This document shows positions 23,747 to 51,383 of a stretch of 64,000 nucleotides of DNA, piece by piece (position 1 is the stretch's first letter; each line of letters begins with the position of its first letter). The notes under the pieces were generated by a model that saw only the letters and a program-made list of their open reading frames with translations, was not told the DNA's origin and did not search any database. Both the position numbers and the translations under genes were made by a program. Source of the DNA: an uncultured Patescibacteria group bacterium (GTDB taxonomy: Bacteria; Patescibacteriota; Minisyncoccia; Phycocordibacterales; UBA918). The stretch is from positions 7,839 to 71,838 of the forward strand of contig CAKUWT010000001.1 of the NCBI GenBank assembly GCA_934699595.1, written 5' to 3'.

Positions 23747-24121
23747 TTAATTGATCACTCGCGCTTTCAGTGTGGCAACACCTTGGGCTTTGAAACCCAG
23801 GCGCTCAGCCGCTGCTTTGGAAACATCGAGCTCTCGTCCTTTAACGTAAGGACCACGATCTTGCACCGTCACAACCAAAACTCGCCCATTTTCTGGGTTT
23901 TCGAGCCTAATTTTGGTGCCAAACGGCAAAGATTTGTGTGCGACCACGGTGTGATCGTTCATATCAAATCTGTTTCCGTTTGCCATGGAGTTCCCTTGCA
24001 GGCCGGGTCCATACCAGCTGGTACGAACGGCTGATTCAGTTTGCAGTGATATATCTGCCACAGCCGGTGCTGTGACGCAAAATGATAGACAAATCACTGC
24101 TGCGCTGACAATTTTTGACAC
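23747..24121 (-). CDS. RlpA-like double-psi beta-barrel (DPBB) protein, secreted
   Basis: signal peptide; SWYGPG...AHKSLPFGTKIRLENPENGRVLVVTVQDRGPY motif. Confidence 0.75.
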   Translation of the reverse strand: MSKIVSAAVICLSFCVTAPAVADISLQTESAVRTSWYGPGLQGNSMANGNRFDMNDHTVVAHKSLPFGTKIRLENPENGRVLVVTVQDRGPYVKGRELDVSKAAAERLGFKAQGVATLKARVIN

Positions 24122-24189: not shown

Positions 24190-25110
24190 TTACAAAGAAA
24201 TGATTTTGGGAAAATTGTGGTACAAACTAAGACTTTTTTCTGTTAGCGAGTAGGTGGCTGCTTGGGCAGCAAAGCTTTCTAGAAGCGATTGGTATTTGTC
24301 TTTATGGGTAATCAGTAAGACCGTTCCCAACACATCGGCGGCCAGCGCTGAAGGGGCTACTACGAAACTAGCGTCTAGAGTTTTGACGTCGGGAGTGACA
24401 GCTGCTCTCTCGCTAGTATCGATAATGTGATTATAAGTTTTCCCAGCTACTCGCCACTCTCGTTTGTGCGGACTAGAGGAGGCCAAGCTGGCGTTCGTCA
24501 GAGCAATTTTTCCGAGGTAAGTATTGGCTTCAGTGGGGTGCTCTAAGTAGAGTTCCCAGGGAGGACTTAACTTGTTGCTAACAATAATATCGCCACCGGC
24601 ATTAATAAGAAAGTCGTGCAACTGCCAAGTTTTTCGGAGAAAGTCAGCCACTAAGTCAAGGGCGTAACCCTTGCCGTAACCACCCAGATCAATCAGGCCT
24701 TTTGTGAGAGTGATTTTTGCTGGGGTAATCTGTAAATCGGTCAGGGGGTTAGGGAAGTCGTCTGGTTCGGCTTGGGGAATAAAACTATAATCAGCGTCGT
24801 AGCCGCGCCGATTAAGATGTTCACCGACCAAGGGATTAAAAATCGTGGCAGTTTTTTGGTATAAATCTTGACCAAGTTGTAAGAGGGTGACGGTTTCAGT
24901 CTCGGGATTAGGCAAAACCCGCTCCTTATTTAGTTTTGTAATCAATGAGTCAGCTTTGAAGCGAGAGTATTTGTTCTCAAAATCAGCCACTAAAGAAACT
25001 ACTGCCGTTTTCAGGGCAGTAGTTTCTTCATCAGTAAAATTACTAACTATCTCAACATGCCAAGTGGTGCCAAGAGCGGGGAAGGAAAAGGTCTTAGTAG
25101 CAAAGGGCAT
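24190..25110 (-). CDS. apbE: FAD:protein FMN transferase (ApbE family)
   Basis: ApbE signature DLGGYGKGYALD and overall length. Confidence 0.8.
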   Translation of the reverse strand: MPFATKTFSFPALGTTWHVEIVSNFTDEETTALKTAVVSLVADFENKYSRFKADSLITKLNKERVLPNPETETVTLLQLGQDLYQKTATIFNPLVGEHLNRRGYDADYSFIPQAEPDDFPNPLTDLQITPAKITLTKGLIDLGGYGKGYALDLVADFLRKTWQLHDFLINAGGDIIVSNKLSPPWELYLEHPTEANTYLGKIALTNASLASSSPHKREWRVAGKTYNHIIDTSERAAVTPDVKTLDASFVVAPSALAADVLGTVLLITHKDKYQSLLESFAAQAATYSLTEKSLSLYHNFPKIISL

Positions 25111-25122
25111 GCTAGGAAGCGA

Positions 25123-25567
25123 TTAAATGGTGGCCTTGGTTTTGATCTCAGCTAGAGCGCTGTTGAAAGCGTCTGAGGTAGTGGACGCACCGGCTACGCG
25201 AGATAGGTTAACTTCCTCAAGTTTCTTACCAACAACTTCTGCTTGGTAAATTTCCTCAAAACGTTCGGTGATTTTAGCACTAGTACCAGATAAACTTTCA
25301 TCATAGCTATTACTGACCGCGGTGACGATGTCATCACGGAGAGTTAGATTCACAGTAATGGTGTGGTTACCGGAAGGGGTAGGGTAAGTATTCTCACCAA
25401 CATACTCTCCATCACGAAATTTGTTGGCGACAGCATTGCTGTGGTCAATGTTCACAACAGTATTCTGGTCACTATCTCGGTTTGGGGTGTTCAGGCTAGT
25501 AAAAAAATAAACTCCAGCACCAAGAGTAAGAACGATTAGAGCTATAATAAATGGCATAAATATTAAA
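25123..25567 (-). CDS. membrane-anchored FMN-binding domain protein (likely ApbE flavinylation substrate)
   Basis: N-terminal TM, C-terminal VAGASTTSDAFNSAL resembling the (S/T)GA(T/S) flavinylation motif; start set at MPFIIAL (ORF extends to 25701). Confidence 0.55.
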
Positions 25568-25676
25568 TTAAAATTAGTAACAATACTGGAAGTTTTAAGT
25601 CGCCTCCCAATAATTCTTGTTACTGTCATTAAGTATAACTTCATCAACATCTTAAGCCAATACTCCTGGTGGTAAT

Positions 25677-27233
25677 TTGTTACAATTTCAACGTATGCCA
25701 AATTCTTTTTTTAAAACCTATCAACAGTTTAATCGCTTATTAGATAACACCACTATGTACCGGGTGGTGCTGTACTCGTTACTTGCCCTGGTCGGGGTGT
25801 CATGGGTCATGGCTCTGTTTAACTTCTTGCCAACCTCAGCCTGGTCGCTAGTTTTATTTTTGCTAGTTCTGGTGGTAGCCTCTTTGATTGCGAATCAAGT
25901 CTTTGCCACTTTGAGTAAAGTGCCAATCAACTTGGAGTCTAGTCTCGTGACGGCACTTATTCTGTATTTCCTAATCATTCCGCCGCTTAACCTCAATGAT
26001 TATTTATGGGTGATCTTTATCGCAGTACTGACGATGGCGTCTAAGTACGTATTGATCTGGCGCGGGCAACATATTTTTAACCCGGCTGCTGTCGGGGTGG
26101 CGCTGGTGGCCAGTCTTGGTTTCTACGGCGCTTCATGGTGGATCGCGACCCCGGTGTTATTTGTGCCACTATTGATTGCGGGGGTCATTGTGGTTAAGAA
26201 GGTGCGCCGTTGGCAGATGGTGATGATTGCTATCTTAGTGGCTTTCTTTACTTTTCTGGCAGAAACTTGGCTACGGACGGGCGGGGTAGACATCTCAGCT
26301 TTGGGCTGGCGCTTCCTAACCTCTTTCCCAATTCTATTTTTGGCTTTCTACATGTTGACCGAGCCTTTTACTTTACCGCCTCGACATTATCAGCAATACC
26401 TCTATGCGGCTCTGGTAGGCTTTTTGAGCGCTACCACTTTAGCAACCGGTTATTTTGACTTGACACCAGAAATGGCTCTACTAATCGGCAATCTTGTAGT
26501 CTGGCCACTGTTATTACAAAGAAAGTTGATACTGAAGTTAGATAAAACTGAGGAAATTGCCGCTGATACTTATGAGTACTCCTTTGTGAAACCCTCAAAG
26601 CTGAAATTCTTGCCAGGGCAATATTTAGAATGGATGTTGCCTCACAAGTTAAAAGATAATCGTGGCGTACGTCGCTACCTGACCATTGCCTCCGCCCCCG
26701 AAAGTGAATACTTACAAATGGCGTTTAAGGTTCCACCGAGCGCAAGCTCCAGTTACAAAAAGAATTTACTACAGATGAATCCAGGTGACAAGATCATTGC
26801 TAGTCAGTTGGCAGGAGACTTTGTCTTGCCGAAAAAACCAGACACTAAGATTGCTGCTGTGGCTGGAGGGATTGGTGTTACACCGTTTACTAGCCATATT
26901 CGACACCTGTTAGCGGCTGGAGAGGCTCGTGATTACCTACTTTTCTATGCCGTAAATACAGTGGCAGAACTAGCTTATATCGAACTCTGGCAAGATGCTG
27001 AAGAGGCAATGTCATTTAAATTAATCCCGGTAGTGGCTAACGAAACAAATCACCGTTACGAGACAGGTTTTATGACAAAGGGATTAATTGAGAAGTATGC
27101 TCCAGACTACCTAGAGCGGACTTGGTATGTGTCGGGTCCGTCAATTATGGTTAATATTCTTGATGGTATTCTTCGCGACTTGGAGGTACCAGAATCTCAA
27201 ATCCGTAAAGATTTCTTTCCTGGAATCGGTTAA
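25677..27233 (+). CDS. RnfD/NqrB-like polytopic membrane domain fused to FNR-type FAD/NAD(P)H oxidoreductase domain
   Basis: N-terminal roughly 10 TM with HIFNPAAVGVALV (RnfD/NqrB NPA-type motif); C-terminal RRYLTIAS (RxYS) and GGIGVTPF (NAD binding). Confidence 0.6.
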   Translation: MLQFQRMPNSFFKTYQQFNRLLDNTTMYRVVLYSLLALVGVSWVMALFNFLPTSAWSLVLFLLVLVVASLIANQVFATLSKVPINLESSLVTALILYFLIIPPLNLNDYLWVIFIAVLTMASKYVLIWRGQHIFNPAAVGVALVASLGFYGASWWIATPVLFVPLLIAGVIVVKKVRRWQMVMIAILVAFFTFLAETWLRTGGVDISALGWRFLTSFPILFLAFYMLTEPFTLPPRHYQQYLYAALVGFLSATTLATGYFDLTPEMALLIGNLVVWPLLLQRKLILKLDKTEEIAADTYEYSFVKPSKLKFLPGQYLEWMLPHKLKDNRGVRRYLTIASAPESEYLQMAFKVPPSASSSYKKNLLQMNPGDKIIASQLAGDFVLPKKPDTKIAAVAGGIGVTPFTSHIRHLLAAGEARDYLLFYAVNTVAELAYIELWQDAEEAMSFKLIPVVANETNHRYETGFMTKGLIEKYAPDYLERTWYVSGPSIMVNILDGILRDLEVPESQIRKDFFPGIG

Positions 27234-44427: not shown

Positions 44428-47400
44428 ATGAAATTATCAAAAATAATAGATAACAATAGGAAAACCTTACTCGACACTTTTGTCGATGTAAGTGAAAAGC
44501 ATAAAGAACTCTCTATAGCTACTGGCTACTGGGATCTCGAAGGAATGAGAATGCTTCTTCCTCAATTAAGAAACTACGAAAAAATAAGACTCCTAATTGG
44601 TCGAGAACCTCTAATTCCTCGACACCAACTTGAGCAACCTGAACCAGATTATCCTGATCAAGACTTTAAATTTGATTTAACTCATATCAAACCAGAATCT
44701 GAACTCAAGGATCTTGTAACAGAGATCAAACAATGGATTGAATCTGGCAAACTAGAGGTCCGTGTTTACCGCAAAAACTTCTTGCACGCCAAATGTTTTA
44801 TCTTCGGATCATATGATTCTGATGAAGCTATTGGAATTATTGGATCTTCAAACCTTACAAAGAATGGTCTGACTCATAATACCGAACTCAATGCTTTAGA
44901 ATCAGATCATCGTGTAGTTGTTTTTGAGCCTAAGAATAAAGAACAAGAAGTTGGCCACTTGTACTGGTTCGATAGTTTTTGGAATGACGAAGGAACTGAG
45001 AAGTGGGACGAGCAATTTGGATCAATTCTTGAATCATCACCTGTTGGCGATAAGCTTTTCAGTCCATATGAGACGTACATAAAAACTCTTTACGAGTTAT
45101 ACAAAGAAGAGATCATTGATGATGAGCTAGTGGTTAATGAAAGCGATAACGGCAGAACTCTTTTTGATTTCCAACACAAGAATACTCAAGCCCTACTACG
45201 AAGACTGAGAAAGTATAAAGTAGCGATGCTTTCGGACTCTGTTGGTCTTGGCAAAACTCTGACTGCTATCAATGTGATCAAGCAGTATTTAGAAGACGAA
45301 GAAGGTAAAAAACGAGTTGAGATTATCTGTCCTAAATCTTTGGTCCAACAATGGGAAAAGGAAATGGCTACTGAGGGTATTTATAATCACACTCCTATCA
45401 CTCTTCAGAACCCTAACGAAATTGAGAAAAAGCGAGAGCTTGATGCAATTGCAAGTGTTACTTTGTTTGTGATCGATGAATCTCACAACCTTCGACAAAC
45501 CAATGGAAAGCGTTTCAAGCAAGTACTTGACTGGGTACGAGAAAATCCAAAAGCTCACGTCCTATTACTTACCGCTACTCCGATCAATAATCAGTTAAGT
45601 GATCTCACTAACCAGATTCTACTTGGAACTGGTGGTGATGCTGACGGTCTAAGATTGACTGTTGCTGATGAGAATAATCAGACTGAACAAAGAAACTTTT
45701 ATCAGATCGTTGAAAACCTCAGAAAGAAGATTAATCAGGACCTTAAGCGAGATGGAAAAATAGACTATAACCACATTAAACAAGTGATGACTCCGATCAT
45801 CAGAACATTTGTGGTCCGACGTACTCGACAAGGAATTGAACAAGAATATGGGTATTTGATGATCAATGGAGAAAAGAAAGTTTTTCCTATAGTAGTGCCT
45901 GAGGTTCTGGAATACGTACTTGATAACAAGCTTGTTAAGGAGCTTCGATCAGTTACCTCTGAATCGATTCCGCTTGATGAAATATACGAGCTTGATCCTG
46001 AGCAAGTAGTTGAGAAATGTAAGGATCTTAAGCACCCACTAGATCAAATTTCTAATGTATCTAAGAAGTTAGATAAAGAAAAATTGGATGGCGAAAATCC
46101 AATGTATTTCGTATTTCAACTTATATTAATGCTTGGGTTCATTCCATACCGATGGATGATGTATAAGGCTGATTATTATGGGAAGACACGAGATGAAATC
46201 AAAGAATTAAAAATTAGTTCAGATAAAAGCAAGAAGCTACTGCTCCAGCTTGGTATTTTTGGAATCCTGCGGACTGTATTCCTAAAGCGTATGGAATCTT
46301 CAGTAAGTGCCTTAGCTTCTTCTCTTGAAACGTATTCACGCAAATTAGATCTCTTTGAACAAGGAATTAATGAAGGGAGGATTGTATCAATGGATGATCT
46401 TGATGCTCTTGAATCAAGTCTTGGAGATGAAGATGTTGAAGTTGATGAAAAAGCTCTTGAAGAACATACCCTTGATGAGGTTGATGATAAAAGATACGAG
46501 CTAGAGTCACTTAAGAAAGATATTCAACGAGAAAAGCAATTAGTGTCTTTAATTACCGCTCAACTTGAAATTCTAAATAAAGACGACTCCAAGATTAAGT
46601 GTTTTGCGGATCAGCTCAATACTTTGCAAAAGCGGGATCCAAATCAAAAGGTACTTGTGTTCTCGTACTTTGCAGATACCATTAAATATCTCGAAGAGAA
46701 TATTGGTAAATATTGTGATTTTCTTACCGAAGAAAACACTGGTTTTGTTTCCTCAAAAAACAAAGGAGACTCTGAAAATATGGCTTCTCGTTTCTCTCCT
46801 AAATCTAAAAAATATCAACTCAAAGATGGAGAAACTGAACTTCAGTATCTATTTTCAACTGATGTATTGTCTGAGGGCCAAAACCTTCAAGATTCAGGTG
46901 TTCTAGTCAATTACGATCTGCACTGGAATCCTGTGCGTATGATTCAAAGAAATGGTCGTGTAAACCGTCTTGGATCTGAATTTGAAGAGGTATATATCTA
47001 CAATATGAAGCCAGAGCAAAAGCTCGATACCTATCTTGAATTGGTAAAAAGACTTGAAGGAAAGATCAATTTGATCAGAAATACTGTCGGTACTGATACA
47101 CCAGTGCTTGATGAACCAGAAAACCCTATTGAGTACACTGACTCAGTAACAGATATTTATAGCTCTGATGTTGAAACCAGATTGAAGGCTCTACAAGACG
47201 CTGAAAAAGCTTCAGACTTCTTGCTTTCAGAAGATGAGTTTGTGGTTGATTTGAAAAAGTTTAACTCAAACGAAAGCTATCCAAAGGAATATAAAGAGAA
47301 GATCTATCAGATGTCAGATGGTAAATGGGCTGTATGTCCAAAACAAGAAGCTAGAGGCCAAGAACGGCCTGAGGTCTTCGGTCTCGCACGACTCTATTCA

Positions 47401-47913
47401 GAAGCAGAATCAGATCCTATTGGTTATCAGTTCGCAAAAATAGATCGCACGGGTGCACAAATTCAAGCAGTCTCTCAACTGCAAGCTCTTGAGTGGCTGA
47501 GAACTACACCAGAGGATAATGATCGAGTAATGGATAAAATCACTGCTGATAAAGTGGCTGTAAAAGATCAATTGGAATCTAAAGTCATTCAATACTTTGG
47601 GCAAGAAGAAACTGGATCACTCATTGGGCAAGAAAATAATATCCTTAGACTGCTTTACGAAAATGGCTACGCTCAAGAAGAGATTGATTTGGTCCGAGAC
47701 GTCTTTAAGACGACAAACATATTCTACAAACGTGAAGTAGATAAGTTGAAGCGGAATGTAATGCGACAGAAAAATAAAGGTGAAATGTATCAGGATGATC
47801 TGCGAGAGCTTGTAAAACTAGCTAAGGAAATTGATAAGAATACGAACGATGAAGAATCATTAACACCTGAGAAAGTTGAAAGTGTATTGTTTTATGTAAA
47901 TCGAAATGAGTAA
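44428..47913 (+). CDS. PLD-family (HKD) nuclease domain fused to SNF2-family helicase (putative restriction/defense subunit)
   Basis: HKD motif HAKCFIFGS...IGSSNLT near the N-terminus; SNF2 motifs SDSVGLGKT (I), VIDESHNLR (II), QRNGRVNRLGS (VI). Confidence 0.85.
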   Translation: MKLSKIIDNNRKTLLDTFVDVSEKHKELSIATGYWDLEGMRMLLPQLRNYEKIRLLIGREPLIPRHQLEQPEPDYPDQDFKFDLTHIKPESELKDLVTEIKQWIESGKLEVRVYRKNFLHAKCFIFGSYDSDEAIGIIGSSNLTKNGLTHNTELNALESDHRVVVFEPKNKEQEVGHLYWFDSFWNDEGTEKWDEQFGSILESSPVGDKLFSPYETYIKTLYELYKEEIIDDELVVNESDNGRTLFDFQHKNTQALLRRLRKYKVAMLSDSVGLGKTLTAINVIKQYLEDEEGKKRVEIICPKSLVQQWEKEMATEGIYNHTPITLQNPNEIEKKRELDAIASVTLFVIDESHNLRQTNGKRFKQVLDWVRENPKAHVLLLTATPINNQLSDLTNQILLGTGGDADGLRLTVADENNQTEQRNFYQIVENLRKKINQDLKRDGKIDYNHIKQVMTPIIRTFVVRRTRQGIEQEYGYLMINGEKKVFPIVVPEVLEYVLDNKLVKELRSVTSESIPLDEIYELDPEQVVEKCKDLKHPLDQISNVSKKLDKEKLDGENPMYFVFQLILMLGFIPYRWMMYKADYYGKTRDEIKELKISSDKSKKLLLQLGIFGILRTVFLKRMESSVSALASSLETYSRKLDLFEQGINEGRIVSMDDLDALESSLGDEDVEVDEKALEEHTLDEVDDKRYELESLKKDIQREKQLVSLITAQLEILNKDDSKIKCFADQLNTLQKRDPNQKVLVFSYFADTIKYLEENIGKYCDFLTEENTGFVSSKNKGDSENMASRFSPKSKKYQLKDGETELQYLFSTDVLSEGQNLQDSGVLVNYDLHWNPVRMIQRNGRVNRLGSEFEEVYIYNMKPEQKLDTYLELVKRLEGKINLIRNTVGTDTPVLDEPENPIEYTDSVTDIYSSDVETRLKALQDAEKASDFLLSEDEFVVDLKKFNSNESYPKEYKEKIYQMSDGKWAVCPKQEARGQERPEVFGLARLYSEAESDPIGYQFAKIDRTGAQIQAVSQLQALEWLRTTPEDNDRVMDKITADKVAVKDQLESKVIQYFGQEETGSLIGQENNILRLLYENGYAQEEIDLVRDVFKTTNIFYKREVDKLKRNVMRQKNKGEMYQDDLRELVKLAKEIDKNTNDEESLTPEKVESVLFYVNRNE

Positions 47914-50875
47914 TCAAGTATTAGACAAAATTAAAGATATTCAAAAAGAACTCAATGAGCTTGAGGTTAAAAAAGACCTGCCTCAATCACAACGAGTAAT
48001 TGCTTCAATTGTCAGACTTCTTGATGATTCTGTTTCTGTTGATGATCAATCCCTCTTTCAGCTTTTTACTGACAGTGACGGAAAGATCAGAGCTAATGCC
48101 TCTTGGTTCTACGAAGACTCAGTAATGACTGACAGAAAAGCGACATATAAAGTACACCCTCAAAACAACCTTAACCTTGATATTAAGCTCTACGGTATTA
48201 CCAAGCCTTCAAAGCGAACGATTGCTTGGGCTCAGTCACTAACACCAAACTTTGAAGACGAACCTTTCAACAAGAACTTCAATGTTGGAATTGATTTTAT
48301 TGTTCCAAAGAGTGCTGATCGGATCATTGTGGTCCTAAGTAATAACTGGGTTATCCGAACGCTTGAACTTAAGGGCAAGCTTACTGTTACGTTTCAAGAG
48401 ATCCTTGCACGTTGGGCTGAAATAAAAAACTTCGATAACAAAACTGAGCTTCACAATATCCTTTGGGAAAGTTTTGATATTCAGCCTCTCAACAAGAAGT
48501 TTTACTCTGGTATCAGTGAACGCTTTACTCTTCTTCGTCAATATCTTGTTAAGGAAAAGGTGTTTGATGAAAAGCACGCTTCTTTGTTTGCAAACCGACT
48601 TCTTGGTCGAGTTATCTTCTGTTGGTTCTTGGACAAAAAAGGGATCATCAATCCTGACCAGAAGTACTTCGATTCTAAATCTTTTGATAATGACAGTGAA
48701 TACTACAAAACCAAACTAGAAAGACTTTTCTTTGAGGTGTTAAATACACCTATTGAAGATCGAGAATTTAAAGATGATGTAACACCATTTCTAAACGGCG
48801 GTCTTTTTGAAGCACGAAAAAATGATCTTTACAAAAATTCGAAGCTTTCATTCCCGAAGAATTATTTTGACGATCTGTTTGAGTTTCTTTCTGGATACAA
48901 CTTCACAACTGATGAGAGCACGAGTCAGTTCCAGCAAGTAGCGATTGACCCCGAGATGCTTGGTCGTATCTTTGAAAACCTTCTTGCTGAAATGACAGAA
49001 GAGACTGGAGAGCAGGCCCGAAAAGCAAAAGGTGCTTTCTATACACCTCGAGAAATCGTAGACTATATGTGCAAGGAATCGCTCAAGGAATATCTTAAAA
49101 CTAAGATTGAGAAAGATGAGCAGTTGGACCAACGTTTGTATCAGCTTATAGATGCCCCTGATAAAGACTTTCAAGACCAAGACCATAATTGGCGAAGGGA
49201 CTGGAAACCTTACAAATCTGATATTTTGAAGGCTCTTGATGAGCTGAAAGTTCTTGATCCAGCTTGTGGATCTGGGGCGTTTCCAATAGGTATGCTTCAG
49301 CTTCTGGTGCGCGTATATGAGCGTTTAGAGGCTCGTTTTGACTCGTATAAGACGAAATTGGGCATTATAGAGAAGAATATCTATGGTGTAGATATAGAGC
49401 CGATGGCGGTTGAAATAGCACGGCTTCGAGCGTGGCTTTCAATTATCGTTGACGAAGAATCAGATTCTAAAAAGATTAAACCACTTCCAAACCTTGAGTT
49501 TAAATTCATTTGTGCTAACTCGCTTATAGATCTCGATAGGAATAGTAATAATACTTTTGGTGACGATCCAGAACTGCAAGAGAAGCTTGCGTCTATTCGA
49601 GATGCTTATTTCAATACCGAAAGCTTGAACAAGAAAAAGAAACTACGAACTGATTATGAAAAACTGGTAACTCAAGGAGAAGGGTTGTTTGGTGAATCTA
49701 AGAAATCAAAACAATTGAAGACTTATAGACCGTTTGATAATGAGGCTCAAGCTGATTTCTTTGATCCTAAATTTATGTTTGGAGTTGGAGCATTTGATGT
49801 GGTTATTGGAAATCCTCCTTATTATGTCATCAAAAAAACGCATCCCCACCTACGGTATTTTGAAGATAATTATTTTCTTACTAAAGGCGGAAAGAAGAAT
49901 TTGTATAGGCTGTTTTTTGAAAAAGGTTTTAGTTTACTAAAGAAAAGTGGAGTTTTAACGTTTATAACCCCCGACAACTATCTGACAAGTAAAGATAGCA
50001 AGTTACTAAGAAAGAAGATCATTGAAGATCTAAAAATACGCTCGATCATCCATTTCACGGAAAAAGACAGTGTGTTCGAAAGTGCCACTCAAGCGGTTGC
50101 TGTGGTTATCCTTCAAAATGACAGTTTAGATAATTATACCTTCAACTTTAAACAATACGGTGAAGAGTACACATTAGAAAGCCTTTTAATTAAACAAAGG
50201 AAAGGATTTTACATTAAGCCACTACCTGAAATTATTGAAAAAATAGAGTCATTTCCACATCAACTTTCTACTTATGTTGAGGGTTTCCAAGGAGAAATAA
50301 ATGTCTCTACAAAAAAACATTTATTTTCTATAAATAACAACCGAGACTTTTTACCGCTTCTAAGAGGAATGCACATAGGAAGATTCTCTTTAAAAGAAGA
50401 ACCTAAAGAGTATTGCCCTATAGGTGCTCAAAAAAGAGATCACTATAAAGTAGATCGTGTTGTTATTCAGGAAGTTTCAAATTCAGGCTTGAAGCAAAGA
50501 CTAAATGCAGTATTGCTTAATAATTATTTGTGTGGACACACAACTAATTATTTATTTAGTAAGTCTAAGGATTTTGATAATTATTCAATTCTCGGTTTAA
50601 TTAATTCATCATTACTGAACTATTATTTCAAGTTTTACAACCAAACCAACCACGTTCCTATTGGTGAGATAAAACAAATACCTATCCCGAACCTAAAAGG
50701 TAAAAAGAATATTATAAATTCAATTAGCAGAATAGCTAAAGAATTAACCGAAGAACATAGACACAATAATTACGGTGATTTATCCTCAAAAGAGGCTGAA
50801 TTGAACAAGTTGGTCTATAGCTTATATGATCTTACAGAGGAAGAGATTAAAGTTATCGAAGTATCAACATTATGA
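47906..50875 (+). CDS. Eco57I/gamma-class N6-adenine DNA methyltransferase with N-terminal and C-terminal accessory (target-recognition) domains
   Basis: FYTPREIVDYM, LDPACGSGAF (motif I), VVIGNPPY (motif IV); 8-nt overlap with the upstream gene. Confidence 0.9.
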   Translation: MSNQVLDKIKDIQKELNELEVKKDLPQSQRVIASIVRLLDDSVSVDDQSLFQLFTDSDGKIRANASWFYEDSVMTDRKATYKVHPQNNLNLDIKLYGITKPSKRTIAWAQSLTPNFEDEPFNKNFNVGIDFIVPKSADRIIVVLSNNWVIRTLELKGKLTVTFQEILARWAEIKNFDNKTELHNILWESFDIQPLNKKFYSGISERFTLLRQYLVKEKVFDEKHASLFANRLLGRVIFCWFLDKKGIINPDQKYFDSKSFDNDSEYYKTKLERLFFEVLNTPIEDREFKDDVTPFLNGGLFEARKNDLYKNSKLSFPKNYFDDLFEFLSGYNFTTDESTSQFQQVAIDPEMLGRIFENLLAEMTEETGEQARKAKGAFYTPREIVDYMCKESLKEYLKTKIEKDEQLDQRLYQLIDAPDKDFQDQDHNWRRDWKPYKSDILKALDELKVLDPACGSGAFPIGMLQLLVRVYERLEARFDSYKTKLGIIEKNIYGVDIEPMAVEIARLRAWLSIIVDEESDSKKIKPLPNLEFKFICANSLIDLDRNSNNTFGDDPELQEKLASIRDAYFNTESLNKKKKLRTDYEKLVTQGEGLFGESKKSKQLKTYRPFDNEAQADFFDPKFMFGVGAFDVVIGNPPYYVIKKTHPHLRYFEDNYFLTKGGKKNLYRLFFEKGFSLLKKSGVLTFITPDNYLTSKDSKLLRKKIIEDLKIRSIIHFTEKDSVFESATQAVAVVILQNDSLDNYTFNFKQYGEEYTLESLLIKQRKGFYIKPLPEIIEKIESFPHQLSTYVEGFQGEINVSTKKHLFSINNNRDFLPLLRGMHIGRFSLKEEPKEYCPIGAQKRDHYKVDRVVIQEVSNSGLKQRLNAVLLNNYLCGHTTNYLFSKSKDFDNYSILGLINSSLLNYYFKFYNQTNHVPIGEIKQIPIPNLKGKKNIINSISRIAKELTEEHRHNNYGDLSSKEAELNKLVYSLYDLTEEEIKVIEVSTL

Positions 50876-51309
50876 AATCAATAATCTTTGCCAGAGTTTC
50901 AGATAAAAAACAGGACTCAAACGAGGCTCAAGTGTCTCGTATTTCTGAATACATCAGAGCCAAAGATCTTCAGGTTTGGAAAACATATGAGCTTGAAGAG
51001 TCTTCAACTCGTGGCGAATTACTAAAGATGACTATGACAGAAAGTTGAAAGAGCTTAAGTCAAAACAGCACGATCTCAATATACAAATTGAGGACCATAC
51101 TAAGGCAGACGAAAACTACTATATTACTGCTTCTACAGTGTTAAATTTGGCTAAGAGCGCACTGACGCTATTTGAAAGTTCCGAAGTGCACGAAAAAAGA
51201 GCTATGCTCAATTATCTACTTCAGAACTGCGTCGTAAATGGAAAAAAGCTAGAGTTTTCAATACGATCTCCGTTTAACCATATACTAGAATTGCACAATC
51301 AACCTACTA
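50872..51309 (+). pseudogene. serine recombinase remnant (N-terminal catalytic fragment plus frameshifted C-terminal fragment)
   Basis: MKSIIFARVSDKKQDSNEAQ (catalytic Ser motif) stops after 58 aa; the C-terminal-like fragment 51045.. in another frame runs into the tRNA. Confidence 0.55.
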
Positions 51310-51383
51310 GGCTCCGCGGGCAGGATTCGAACCTGCGACCAATCGGTTAACAGCCGACTGCTCTACCGCTGAGCTACCGCGGA
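51310..51383 (-). tRNA. tRNA-Asn (anticodon GTT)
   Basis: manual fold: 7-bp acceptor TCCGCGG/CCGCGGA, D-arm GCTC/GAGC, anticodon loop CTGTTAA, T-arm GCAGG-TTCGAAT-CCTGC. Confidence 0.8.

What the first reader, a model, noticed from the sequence alone, without database searches (positions are those of the whole stretch)
24190..27233. Compact extracytosolic flavinylation/redox module: ApbE plus FMN-binding protein plus RnfD/NqrB-like membrane domain fused to FNR-type reductase
Three adjacent genes make up the module. The first is an ApbE FAD:protein FMN transferase (DLGGYGKGYALD). The second is a membrane-anchored FMN-binding-domain protein whose C-terminus (VAGASTTS) matches the ApbE flavinylation motif. 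The third, divergently transcribed, is a 518-aa protein combining an RnfD/NqrB-type polytopic domain (HIFNPAAVGVALV) with a cytoplasmic FNR-like FAD/NAD(P)H domain (RRYLTIAS, GGIGVTPF). RnfD/NqrB subunits are themselves ApbE substrates. Fusing that domain to an NAD(P)H-binding reductase would give a single-polypeptide, flavin-relayed transmembrane electron conduit from cytoplasmic NAD(P)H to an extracytosolic FMN protein. That is reminiscent of flavin-based extracellular electron transfer loci, but with a different membrane component.
Basis: partly seen in the sequence, partly recalled or inferred. Interest (0 to 1): 0.65.

Follow-up and report, generated by a model that had tools for sequence, protein, structure and literature searches.

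The report
NQR/RNF-like flavin electron-export gene cluster
The three genes are a real, co-conserved module: a flavin-attaching enzyme, a small membrane-anchored flavin-carrier protein, and an RnfD-like membrane protein fused to an NAD(P)H reductase; this type of module was already described from genome surveys in 2021 and 2024 as the "NQR/RNF-like" system, so this is a new member of a known but biochemically untested kind.

Summary
All three genes exist as described, in a Patescibacteria (CPR) genome.
- **ApbE** (24190-25110, minus strand) is a clear Pfam match.
- **The fusion** (probably 25695-27233, 512 aa) passes Pfam thresholds for NQR2_RnfD_RnfE and NAD_binding_1. It models confidently as about 10 membrane helices plus a cytoplasmic FNR domain.
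- **The small protein** (probably 25123-25557, 144 aa) fails the Pfam FMN_bind threshold. Profile comparisons show it is a divergent FMN_bind domain. Its Ser125 (VAGAS) aligns with the flavinylated Thr of SGAT and is invariant in 42 homologues.

36 of 43 well-flanked related loci carry all three genes together, and no other gene is conserved with them. This matches the "NQR/RNF-like" system of Méheust et al. 2021 and Huang et al. 2024, which is predicted to pass electrons from NAD(P)H to an outward-facing flavin. It has never been tested experimentally.

- The RnfD-like domain has lost the loop that carries the flavinylated Thr, so it is probably not an ApbE substrate.
- The ApbE, like all 51 cluster-linked ApbEs I examined, has no export signal, although its substrate looks exported. 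This is unexplained.

Verdict: new member of a known kind, modest interest.

The parts
24190..25110 (-). ApbE-type FAD:protein FMN transferase, 306 aa, with no signal peptide or membrane anchor
   Evidence: Pfam ApbE E=5e-40. It aligns end to end with signal-peptide-truncated V. cholerae ApbE (6nxi) and keeps the catalytic His in YNHIID. The DxGGxxKG, AGGD and AD..GT motifs are kept. An in-frame TAA lies 12 nt upstream of the ATG, so no N-terminal extension is possible.
25123..25557 (-). NqrC/RnfG-like membrane-anchored, divergent FMN_bind protein, 144 aa (the maximal ORF runs to 25701)
   Evidence: Start placed by homologues. Pfam FMN_bind is sub-threshold at 14.2 bits. hhalign to canonical FMN_bind partners gives 97.9%. 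PDB 8p2a FMN-binding domain matches at E=5.7e-4. The AF2 model has 3 strands and 2 helices, with domain pLDDT above 85.
25498..25554 (-). N-terminal hydrophobic signal-anchor of the FMN_bind protein (residues 2-20, PFIIALIVLTLGAGVYFFT)
   Evidence: Read directly from the sequence. Clade homologues all begin MP plus a hydrophobic stretch, followed by an acidic flank. Actinobacterial homologues carry lipoboxes (LAGC, LAAC) at this position.
25183..25197 (-). Predicted flavinylation motif V-A-G-A-S (residues 121-125); the Ser125 codon is 25183-25185
   Evidence: Ser125 aligns with the Thr of SGAT in canonical partners and with GAT in 8p2a. Ser125 is invariant and Gly123 nearly invariant in 42 homologues.
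25558..25694 (.). Divergent intergenic region between the FMN_bind-ApbE operon and the fusion gene
   Evidence: Follows from the start codons chosen by homology. One weak promoter-like match lies just beyond this region, inside the maximal FMN_bind ORF (25660-25632, minus strand, 9 of 12); it is not above shuffled expectation.
25695..26522 (+). NqrB/RnfD-like polytopic membrane domain of the fusion (about 10 TM helices, N-terminus inside)
   Evidence: Pfam NQR2_RnfD_RnfE 31.8 bits against a 27.7 threshold. hhalign to E. coli RsxD gives 93%, E=3.4e-7, over 191 columns. Helices come from the AF2 model, pLDDT 88. Lys/Arg-rich loops alternate as the positive-inside rule predicts.
26118..26141 (+). 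Short outward loop GFYGASWW that replaces the roughly 80-residue RnfD/NqrB loop carrying the flavinylated Thr
   Evidence: The gap is visible in the hhalign alignment against RsxD residues ~145-225, which include GISQAT187. GAS is not conserved in the family consensus.
26523..27233 (+). Cytoplasmic FNR-type FAD/NAD(P)H reductase domain of the fusion (RRYLT FAD motif at 26670-26684; GGIGVTPF NAD(P)H motif at 26865-26888)
   Evidence: NAD_binding_1 E=4e-12; FAD_binding_6 19.3 bits. Profile hits to the NqrF FAD domain and other FNRs reach E=1e-15 to 1e-18. Foldseek top hits are 5ogx, 7qty and 8acw_F at E=1e-14 to 1e-17.

Best explanation
This is a two-subunit "NQR/RNF-like" transmembrane electron-export system together with its own flavin transferase.

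**Proposed mechanism**
1. Cytoplasmic NAD(P)H reduces the FAD of the C-terminal FNR domain of the fusion protein.
2. Electrons cross the membrane through the NqrB/RnfD-like domain. That domain has lost its own covalent-FMN loop and presumably holds a non-covalent flavin.
3. Electrons reach an FMN covalently attached to Ser125 of the small NqrC/RnfG-like protein. This protein is anchored by one N-terminal helix, and its FMN_bind domain sits on the outer face.
4. The outward-facing FMN then reduces an acceptor that is not encoded in the cluster.
5. The ApbE encoded immediately downstream of the small protein installs the FMN from FAD.

**Shown here**
- Domain identities and the topology heuristics.
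- Invariance of Ser125 and its alignment with the flavinylated Thr of SGAT.
- Loss of the RnfD flavinylation loop.
- Co-conservation of the three genes.

**Inferred**
- The direction of electron flow and a non-covalent flavin in the membrane domain.
- Docking of the two subunits, which comes from the published AlphaFold-multimer model of a Ktedonobacter homologue.
- The acceptor.
- Where flavinylation happens. Because the ApbE is leaderless, it most likely happens on the cytoplasmic side, before the C-terminal end of the carrier is translocated.
For: **Domains**
- Pfam ApbE, NQR2_RnfD_RnfE and NAD_binding_1 all pass their thresholds.
- hhalign of the membrane domain against RsxD gives 93%.
- FNR homology by sequence and by fold.
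- The AF2 model of the fusion has pLDDT 88.1 and pTM 0.85.
- The small protein is a divergent FMN_bind domain.
- Ser125 is invariant in 42 homologues.

**ApbE.** The catalytic His and metal-site motifs are retained.

**Topology**
- Lys/Arg-rich loops alternate, giving an N-in, C-in arrangement with 10 TM helices. This places the FNR domain inside and the remnant of the RnfD loop outside.
- The carrier has an N-terminal anchor, an acidic flank and lipoprotein homologues.

**Co-conservation**
- 36 of 43 well-flanked loci have ApbE plus FMN_bind within 3 kb of the fusion.
- These loci span Patescibacteria, Alphaproteobacteria, Chloroflexota and Actinomycetota.
- The carrier stop codon and the ApbE start codon are 0-12 nt apart.

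**Literature.** The same architecture was defined and modelled in PMC8238504 and PMC10979944/PMC11334425.
Against: - No experiment exists for any member of this system.
- The ApbE lacks any export signal, as do all 51 cluster-linked ApbEs. This fits poorly with flavinylation of an exported domain.
- The motif lacks the Asp and the first Ser/Thr of D-x-x-[ST]-G-A-[ST]. Ser is also a poorer acceptor than Thr (PMC12052999).
- The small protein misses the Pfam threshold, and its Foldseek matches are weak (best E=2.8e-3).
- A profile of the membrane domain finds no PDB sequence.
- No acceptor or other partner gene is conserved nearby.
Confidence: 0.72

Rival explanations
1. **Ion-motive version.** The NqrB/RnfD-like domain is not just a wire. 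It couples NAD(P)H oxidation to H+ or Na+ translocation, giving these otherwise respiration-poor Patescibacteria a minimal redox pump that works with the neighbouring rotary ATPase.
For: - In the window's clade, where the fusion is divergent from the other two genes, rotary ATPase genes lie within 0-8 kb of the module in all 7 loci with adequate flanks.
- These are F-type in the window, L082, L084, L088 and L096, and A/V-type in L085 and L087.
- In Na+-NQR the NqrB subunit is implicated in ion translocation (my own knowledge of the NQR literature, not tested here).
Against: - The ATPase neighbourhood is confined to one clade. None of about 35 loci from other clades has it.
- PGI, the DEAD helicase and Fpg recur alongside, so ordinary inherited synteny in small genomes explains it.
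- The system lacks the NqrD/E or RnfA/E subunits.
- The ATPase c subunit in the window reads ...FVEALAIF..., without the Ser/Thr after the Glu that is typical of Na+-binding c rings (my own knowledge).
- No ion-binding residues were identified.
Confidence: 0.08
2. **Assimilatory metal reductase.** The outward-facing FMN reduces extracellular Fe(III) (or another metal) for uptake, as proposed for a subset of these clusters.
For: - Méheust et al. found a VIT1 ferrous-iron transporter in six NQR/RNF-like clusters (PMC8238504).
- In the Mesorhizobium locus L007, the ORF just upstream of the FMN_bind gene has a VIT1-like sequence (GANDGIVSTASLI). I read this by eye and did not profile-test it.
Against: - No iron transporter or other metal gene lies within 10 kb of the module in the window or its close relatives.
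- No such family recurs across loci.

This is a special case of the best explanation rather than a true alternative.
Confidence: 0.12
3. **Cytoplasmic-face system.** Because the ApbE is cytoplasmic, the FMN_bind domain also stays in the cytoplasm (N-out, C-in). It acts as an extra flavin between the FNR domain and the membrane domain, or the ApbE serves another cytosolic target.
For: - All 51 cluster-linked ApbEs lack a hydrophobic N-terminus. Their catalytic domain starts at residues 7-15 in most.
- Cytoplasmic ApbEs acting on cytoplasmic FMN_bind domains are known, for example Klebsiella fumarate reductase (PMC12052999).
- The window's carrier has no positive charge before its anchor helix.
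Against: - Actinobacterial homologues of the carrier have classic lipoprotein signal peptides (LAGC, LAAC, LASC), and most other homologues have Lys/Arg-rich N-regions. Both argue for export.
- The flank after the anchor is acidic in the window's clade.
- The site vacated by the lost RnfD FMN loop faces outward.
- The published multimer model docks the carrier on that outer face (PMC10979944).
Confidence: 0.08

Closest known systems
NQR/RNF-like flavinylation-associated system (Méheust et al., eLife 2021, PMC8238504; Huang et al., mSystems 2024, PMC11334425)
   Same: - A PF03116 membrane domain fused to a PF00175 NAD-binding domain.
- An adjacent NqrC/RnfG-like FMN_bind protein and an adjacent ApbE.
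- Occurrence in the candidate phyla radiation and Actinobacteria.
- Loss of the flavinylated Thr in the NqrB/RnfD-like domain.
- A predicted one-way NAD(P)H-to-outside electron path.
   Different: - The window's FMN_bind protein is a divergent subtype, below the Pfam threshold, with a Ser acceptor in [AS]-G-[AS]-S.
- It pairs with a longer ApbE (about 290-308 aa).
- The fusion gene is divergent rather than co-directional.
- With no Pfam-detectable FMN_bind and no signal peptide on ApbE, clusters of this subtype would probably have failed the published filter (my inference).
- The uniformly leaderless ApbE is not discussed in either paper, as far as my text searches show.
Na+-NQR (NqrB, NqrC, NqrF) and Rnf (RnfD, RnfG)
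   Same: - The membrane domain is homologous to NqrB/RnfD, sharing the GQxxFNPA and (L/M)T(D/E)PxT motifs.
- The carrier is homologous to NqrC/RnfG.
- The reductase domain is closest to the NqrF FAD/NAD domain among solved structures.
- ApbE-dependent FMN attachment.
   Different: - Only two subunits. There are no NqrA/D/E or RnfA/B/C/E homologues, no Fe-S domains, and no quinone or ferredoxin module.
- The NqrB/RnfD loop with covalent FMN is deleted.
- The NqrF-like domain is fused directly to the NqrB-like domain.
- Ion pumping is not established.
Listeria-type flavin-based extracellular electron transfer (Ndh2, EetA/B, DmkA, PplA, FmnB, FmnA)
   Same: An ApbE-family enzyme flavinylates a membrane-tethered, outward-facing FMN_bind protein that receives electrons ultimately derived from NADH.
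   Different: - The membrane step is entirely different: there is no Ndh2, demethylmenaquinone or EetA/B.
- In Listeria, FmnB is an exported lipoprotein and FAD is exported by an ECF transporter. Here the ApbE is leaderless and no flavin exporter lies nearby.
NOX/ferric-reductase-type enzymes and the MsrQ-like or PepSY-like flavinylation systems with a fused NAD-binding domain
   Same: A polytopic membrane domain followed by a cytoplasmic FNR-type NAD(P)H dehydrogenase domain that sends electrons outward. S. pneumoniae NOX (8qt6) appears among the fold matches through its dehydrogenase domain.
   Different: Those enzymes use bis-heme membrane domains. This one has an NqrB/RnfD-type domain with no heme-binding family detected, and it presumably relies on flavins only.

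Membership tests
NQR/RNF-like system (Méheust 2021 definition) | [quoted passage not shown] | tested here: met
   PF03116 scores 31.8 bits against a 27.7 threshold; PF00175 scores 47.1 bits against 22.
NQR/RNF-like system (Méheust 2021 definition) | Encoded within five genes of an ApbE or FMN_bind gene | tested here: met
   The ApbE and the FMN_bind-like gene are the two genes immediately upstream of the fusion, on the opposite strand.
NQR/RNF-like system (Méheust 2021 definition) | [quoted passage not shown] | tested here: inconclusive
   No SignalP-type tool was available. The ApbE has no hydrophobic N-terminus. The carrier has an uncleaved-looking N-terminal anchor, and its actinobacterial homologues have lipoboxes.
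NQR/RNF-like system (Huang 2024 description) | The flavinylated Thr of NqrB/RnfD is not conserved in the membrane subunit | tested here: met
   The loop containing RsxD T187 is absent from the alignment. GAS in the short replacement loop is not conserved.
Rnf or Na+-NQR complex | Six-subunit operon (RnfABCDGE or NqrABCDEF) with Fe-S and RnfA/E or NqrD/E subunits | tested here: not met
   Pfam labels for all genes within 10 kb show none of these. The same holds in relatives.
ApbE FAD:protein FMN transferase (PF02424) | Family profile match and catalytic residues | tested here: met
   Pfam E=5e-40. The His aligned with V. cholerae His257 is kept in YNHIID. The DxGGxxKG, AGGD and AD..GT motifs are conserved across 52 cluster ApbEs.
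ApbE FAD:protein FMN transferase (PF02424) | N-terminal lipoprotein or secretion signal (typical of, but not universal in, the family) | tested here: not met
   The domain starts at residue ~12, and an in-frame stop lies 12 nt upstream. In 51 cluster ApbEs, the maximum 15-residue hydropathy in the first 60 residues is at most 1.88.
FMN_bind domain (PF04205) | Pfam gathering threshold | tested here: not met
   14.2 bits against 22. Only 5 of 9 subtype members match, even at E<=1.
FMN_bind domain (PF04205) | Homology detectable by profile methods | tested here: met
   hhalign gives 97.9%, E=4.8e-13, against partner proteins that all match PF04205. PDB 8p2a matches at E=5.7e-4.
FMN_bind domain (PF04205) | Flavinylation motif D-x-x-[ST]-G-A-[ST] | tested here: inconclusive
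   The window has S-R-V-A-G-A-S. G-A-[ST] is kept and the Ser is invariant. The Asp and the first Ser/Thr are missing. Published mutagenesis reports that Asp to Ala has only minor effects (PMC12052999).
FNR-type reductase (FAD_binding_6 plus NAD_binding_1) | Two-domain FAD/NAD(P)H fold with RxY[ST] and GxGxxP motifs | tested here: met
   NAD_binding_1 passes its threshold; FAD_binding_6 scores 19.3 against 21.1. Foldseek gives E=1e-14 to 1e-17 and target-normalised TM-scores up to 0.8 against FNR and NqrF structures. RRYLT and GGIGVTP are invariant in the family.
Listeria-type flavin-based EET locus | Ndh2, EetA/EetB, DmkA and FmnA next to PplA and FmnB | tested here: not met
   None of these families appears among the genes within 10 kb.

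The most novel reading that the evidence does not exclude
Flavinylation in this system happens on the cytoplasmic side. The leaderless, translationally coupled ApbE would load FMN onto the carrier's C-terminal Ser before that last segment is translocated, so no FAD export is needed. The resulting two-subunit all-flavin complex would be the main membrane redox enzyme of these Patescibacteria. It would be energetically linked to the neighbouring F- or V-type ATPase, either as an ion-motive NAD(P)H oxidase or as the NAD+-regenerating partner of an ATPase running in reverse.
Probability: 0.1. Interest if true: 0.7.

Novelty: new member of a known kind. Interest (0 to 1): 0.3.

Why it matters
Patescibacteria have tiny genomes with almost no recognisable electron-transport machinery. 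A conserved NAD(P)H-to-outside flavin conduit is one of the few candidates for how they re-oxidise NAD(P)H or interact redox-wise with hosts and minerals.

The system has never been tested biochemically. The window offers a compact three-gene version suitable for heterologous expression.

Two points go beyond what the two published analyses discuss, as far as my searches show:
- One subtype has an FMN_bind partner too divergent for Pfam, so the published count of 127 clusters probably underestimates the system in this radiation.
- The dedicated ApbE is always leaderless, which questions where flavinylation takes place.

Both are modest refinements of a known idea rather than a discovery.

Tried and rejected
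**Searches that gave nothing or could not run**
- Foldseek of the whole fusion model against the PDB returned only FNR-type hits in the 50 rows shown, so it says nothing about the NqrB/RnfD fold.
- phmmer and hmmsearch of the membrane domain against PDB sequences found nothing. Homology to RnfD therefore rests on Pfam and on hhalign against E. coli RsxD.
- hhalign of the carrier family against E. coli RsxG was negative (probability 0.4%). The link to FMN_bind comes through other routes.
- A single-sequence search with the carrier found only 3 proteins. A profile was needed.

**Ideas considered and rejected**
- ApbE fused to the carrier by readthrough or an alternative genetic code. The two ORFs are in frame, but they are separated by TAA plus three sense codons, and all neighbouring genes read normally under table 11.
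- A twin-arginine signal in the upstream extension of the carrier ORF (IGRRLK). The extension is absent from the closest relatives, whose ORFs cannot be extended.
- GAS in the fusion's short loop as a residual flavinylation site. It is not conserved.

**Not pursued**
- The supplementary table of PMC8238504 is stored truncated, so I did not use it to check the signal-peptide column for published clusters.


Full report
**1. What is in the sequence**

- **ApbE.** It occupies 24190-25110 on the minus strand (306 aa). It matches Pfam ApbE at E=5e-40 over residues 13-281.
  - It aligns end to end with the signal-peptide-truncated crystal construct of V. cholerae ApbE and retains the catalytic His in YNHIID.
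- **The small protein.** Immediately upstream on the same strand is an ORF of up to 192 aa (25123-25701). It is separated from ApbE by a TAA stop and 12 nt.
  - Its relatives begin at the equivalent of Met49. The ORFs of the closest ones cannot be extended.
  - The gene is therefore most likely 25123-25557, giving 144 aa that start MPFIIALIVLTLGAGVYFF.
- **The fusion.** It is transcribed divergently, and its maximal ORF is 25677-27233 (518 aa).
  - The conserved N-terminal segment LLDNTTMYR and a 512-aa database copy point to ATG 25695 as the start.
  - Pfam scores it above threshold for NQR2_RnfD_RnfE (31.8 bits against 27.7, over the C-terminal third of the profile only) and for NAD_binding_1 (47.1 bits).
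  - FAD_binding_6 falls just below threshold (19.3 bits against 21.1).

Named homologues are from Patescibacteria, Parcubacteria and Paceibacteria. The window's own contig is a 400-454 kb metagenomic scaffold.

**2. The fusion protein**

- *Model.* An AlphaFold2 model built on 28 homologues is confident (pLDDT 88.1, pTM 0.85). It shows about ten membrane helices followed by a beta-barrel plus Rossmann unit.
- *C-terminal half.* It is an FNR-type reductase by sequence, with best solved relatives GcoB reductase and NqrF FAD domains at E=1e-15 to 1e-18. It is also FNR-type by fold, with Foldseek E=1e-14 to 1e-17. RRYLT and GGIGVTP are invariant in the family.
- *Membrane half.* A profile of this half aligns with E. 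coli RsxD (RnfD) at 93% probability, E=3.4e-7, over 191 columns. The two share the GQxxFNPA and LT(D/E)PxT motifs.
- *Lost loop.* The same alignment shows that the roughly 80-residue RnfD loop carrying the flavinylated Thr187 is missing. It is replaced by the short loop GFYGASWW, whose GAS is not conserved.
- *Topology.* Lys/Arg-rich loops alternate with acidic or uncharged ones. This gives an N-in, C-in topology that places the FNR domain in the cytoplasm and the remnant loop outside.

**3. The small protein**

- *Sequence homology.* Pfam does not call it FMN_bind (14.2 bits, E=0.07, against a threshold of 22). Three results show that it is a divergent FMN_bind domain.
  - In most related clusters the gene at this position is a canonical FMN_bind protein with the motif VDI(I/V)SGAT. 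All 8 tested match PF04205.
  - A profile of the window's subtype aligns to those proteins at 97.9% probability, E=4.8e-13. That alignment places the window's V-A-G-A-S on I-S-G-A-T.
  - A 42-sequence profile finds the solved FMN-binding domain 8p2a at E=5.7e-4, with the same register.
- *Acceptor residue.* Ser125 is invariant and Gly123 nearly so. The subtype consensus is V-[SA]-G-[SA]-S-L-T.
- *Model.* The AF2 model has three strands and two helices, with pLDDT above 85 in the domain. It gives only weak Foldseek matches: best 3o6u at E=2.8e-3, with the FMN domain 8p2b at rank 21.
- *Topology.*
  - The N-terminus is a single hydrophobic helix. In the window's clade it is followed by an acidic flank.
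  - Other homologues have Lys/Arg-rich N-regions.
  - Actinobacterial homologues have lipoprotein signal peptides such as LAGC and LAAC.
  - Together these argue that the domain faces outward.
- *Motif.* It lacks the Asp and the first Ser/Thr of D-x-x-[ST]-G-A-[ST]. Published mutagenesis reports that Asp to Ala has only minor effects and that Ser is accepted less well than Thr.

**4. Co-conservation**

- I collected loci from GTDB genomes and metagenomes and from exact look-ups of closer relatives.
- Of 43 non-duplicate loci with at least 2.5 kb on both sides of a full-length fusion gene:
  - 36 have both an ApbE and an FMN_bind gene within 3 kb;
  - 2 have only the FMN_bind gene;
  - 5 have neither.
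- No other gene family recurs across clades. The conserved unit is therefore exactly these three genes, and the acceptor is not encoded with them.
- Two co-varying subtypes exist.
  - Canonical FMN_bind (SGAT) pairs with a short ApbE of about 246 aa, and the genes are co-directional. There are 26 such loci, in several Patescibacteria lineages, Alphaproteobacteria and Chloroflexota including Ktedonospora.
  - The divergent Ser-type FMN_bind pairs with a longer ApbE of about 290-308 aa. There are 21 such loci, in the window's clade, Saccharibacteria and Actinomycetota.
- The fusion is divergent from the other two genes only in the window's clade (9 loci).
- The membrane domain alone finds 1134 cluster representatives at E<=1e-3 and 192 at E<=1e-30 among 1.84 billion proteins. 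Most of the listed hits are 480-530 aa long.

**5. Comparison with what is known**

- Méheust et al. (eLife 2021, PMC8238504) defined the "NQR/RNF-like system" as a flavinylation-associated cluster encoding a PF03116 plus PF00175 fusion.
  - They found 127 clusters, mainly in Actinobacteria and the candidate phyla radiation.
- Huang et al. (2024, PMC10979944/PMC11334425) modelled the Ktedonobacter complex.
  - They noted that the NqrB/RnfD flavinylation site is not conserved.
  - They suggested that the carrier's covalent FMN reaches the flavin site of the membrane subunit.
- Only these two papers in the searchable library mention the system. I found no experimental work on it.
- The window is not an Rnf or NQR operon, because no other subunits lie within 10 kb. 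It is also not a Listeria-type EET locus.

**6. What does not fit**

- *Leaderless ApbE.* The ApbE has no signal peptide, lipobox or membrane helix, and its ORF cannot be extended. This holds for every cluster-linked ApbE I examined.
  - In 51 maximal ORFs, the highest 15-residue hydropathy in the first 60 residues is at most 1.88 (median 1.11). The partner carriers have a median of 2.47.
  - The conserved start of the catalytic domain lies at residues 7-15 in most.
- *Competence.* Catalytic and metal-site motifs are retained in both subtypes, so the enzymes look competent.
- *Known precedents.* Typical ApbEs are exported lipoproteins. Cytoplasmic ApbEs are known only for cytoplasmic substrates.
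- *Literature.* Neither paper's text discusses this point.
- *My preferred reading (inference).* The carrier and ApbE genes are 0-12 nt apart, and the acceptor Ser lies about 20 residues from the C-terminus. Flavinylation could therefore occur on the cytoplasmic side before that last segment is translocated, which would remove any need to export FAD. The alternative, a carrier domain that faces the cytoplasm, is disfavoured by the lipoprotein homologues.

**7. Neighbourhood**

- In the window's clade the module lies next to rotary ATPase genes in all seven loci with enough flank.
  - These are F-type in the window (atpB starts 176 bp after the fusion), L082, L084, L088 and L096.
  - They are A/V-type in L085 and L087.
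- PGI, a DEAD-box helicase and Fpg recur alongside.
- None of the loci from other clades shows the ATPase neighbourhood.
- I read this as inherited synteny of housekeeping genes in small genomes. A functional link is a low-probability alternative.

**8. Verdict**

The module is a new member of an already described but experimentally untested kind, so interest is modest.

Noticed in passing
window 24190-25110; also L001-L028, L082-L142: Every ApbE encoded next to an NqrB/RnfD-FNR fusion (51 examined, from four phyla) lacks any signal peptide, lipobox or membrane helix, although its presumed substrate looks exported. The two papers on this system do not discuss this in their text.
   Followed up: partly
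window 27409-~34000; L082, L084, L085, L087, L088, L096: In the window's clade the module always sits within 0-8 kb of rotary ATPase genes. These are F-type in five loci (including the window) and A/V-type in two, with PGI, a DEAD-box helicase and Fpg recurring nearby. Loci from other clades show no such neighbourhood.
   Followed up: partly
window 44428-51383: A low-GC stretch (0.355-0.383 against about 0.44) holds two large ORFs. One is a 1161-aa PLD-nuclease plus SNF2/DEAD helicase. The other is a 989-aa Eco57I/MmeI-type N6 methyltransferase with a TaqI_C specificity domain. They lie beside the window's only tRNA (Asn, 51310-51383). This is probably an acquired restriction or defence island.
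   Followed up: no
window 23747-24121 (-): A secreted DPBB_1/RlpA-like protein (124 aa, with a signal peptide) lies 68 bp downstream of ApbE on the same strand. Relatives L082 and L084 have an unrelated 140-aa secreted protein at this position, so it is not part of the conserved module.
   Followed up: partly
L030-L042, L146-L169: Many Saccharibacteria and other loci match only the FNR half of the fusion (query residues ~255-490). This suggests that the same reductase domain is attached to other N-terminal partners.
   Followed up: no
L037 460-1371 (+); P0124-P0126, P0128: Some Saccharibacteria carry a carrier of about 280-303 aa. In L037 it holds two tandem divergent FMN_bind domains; the first has the motif RVGGAT and the second has RIGQAT.
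   Followed up: no
L007 5465-6214 (-): In a Mesorhizobium locus the ORF just upstream of the FMN_bind-ApbE-fusion operon looks like a VIT1/CCC1 iron transporter (GANDGIVSTASLI). This echoes the published link of some clusters to iron. I read it by eye only and did not profile-test it.
   Followed up: no
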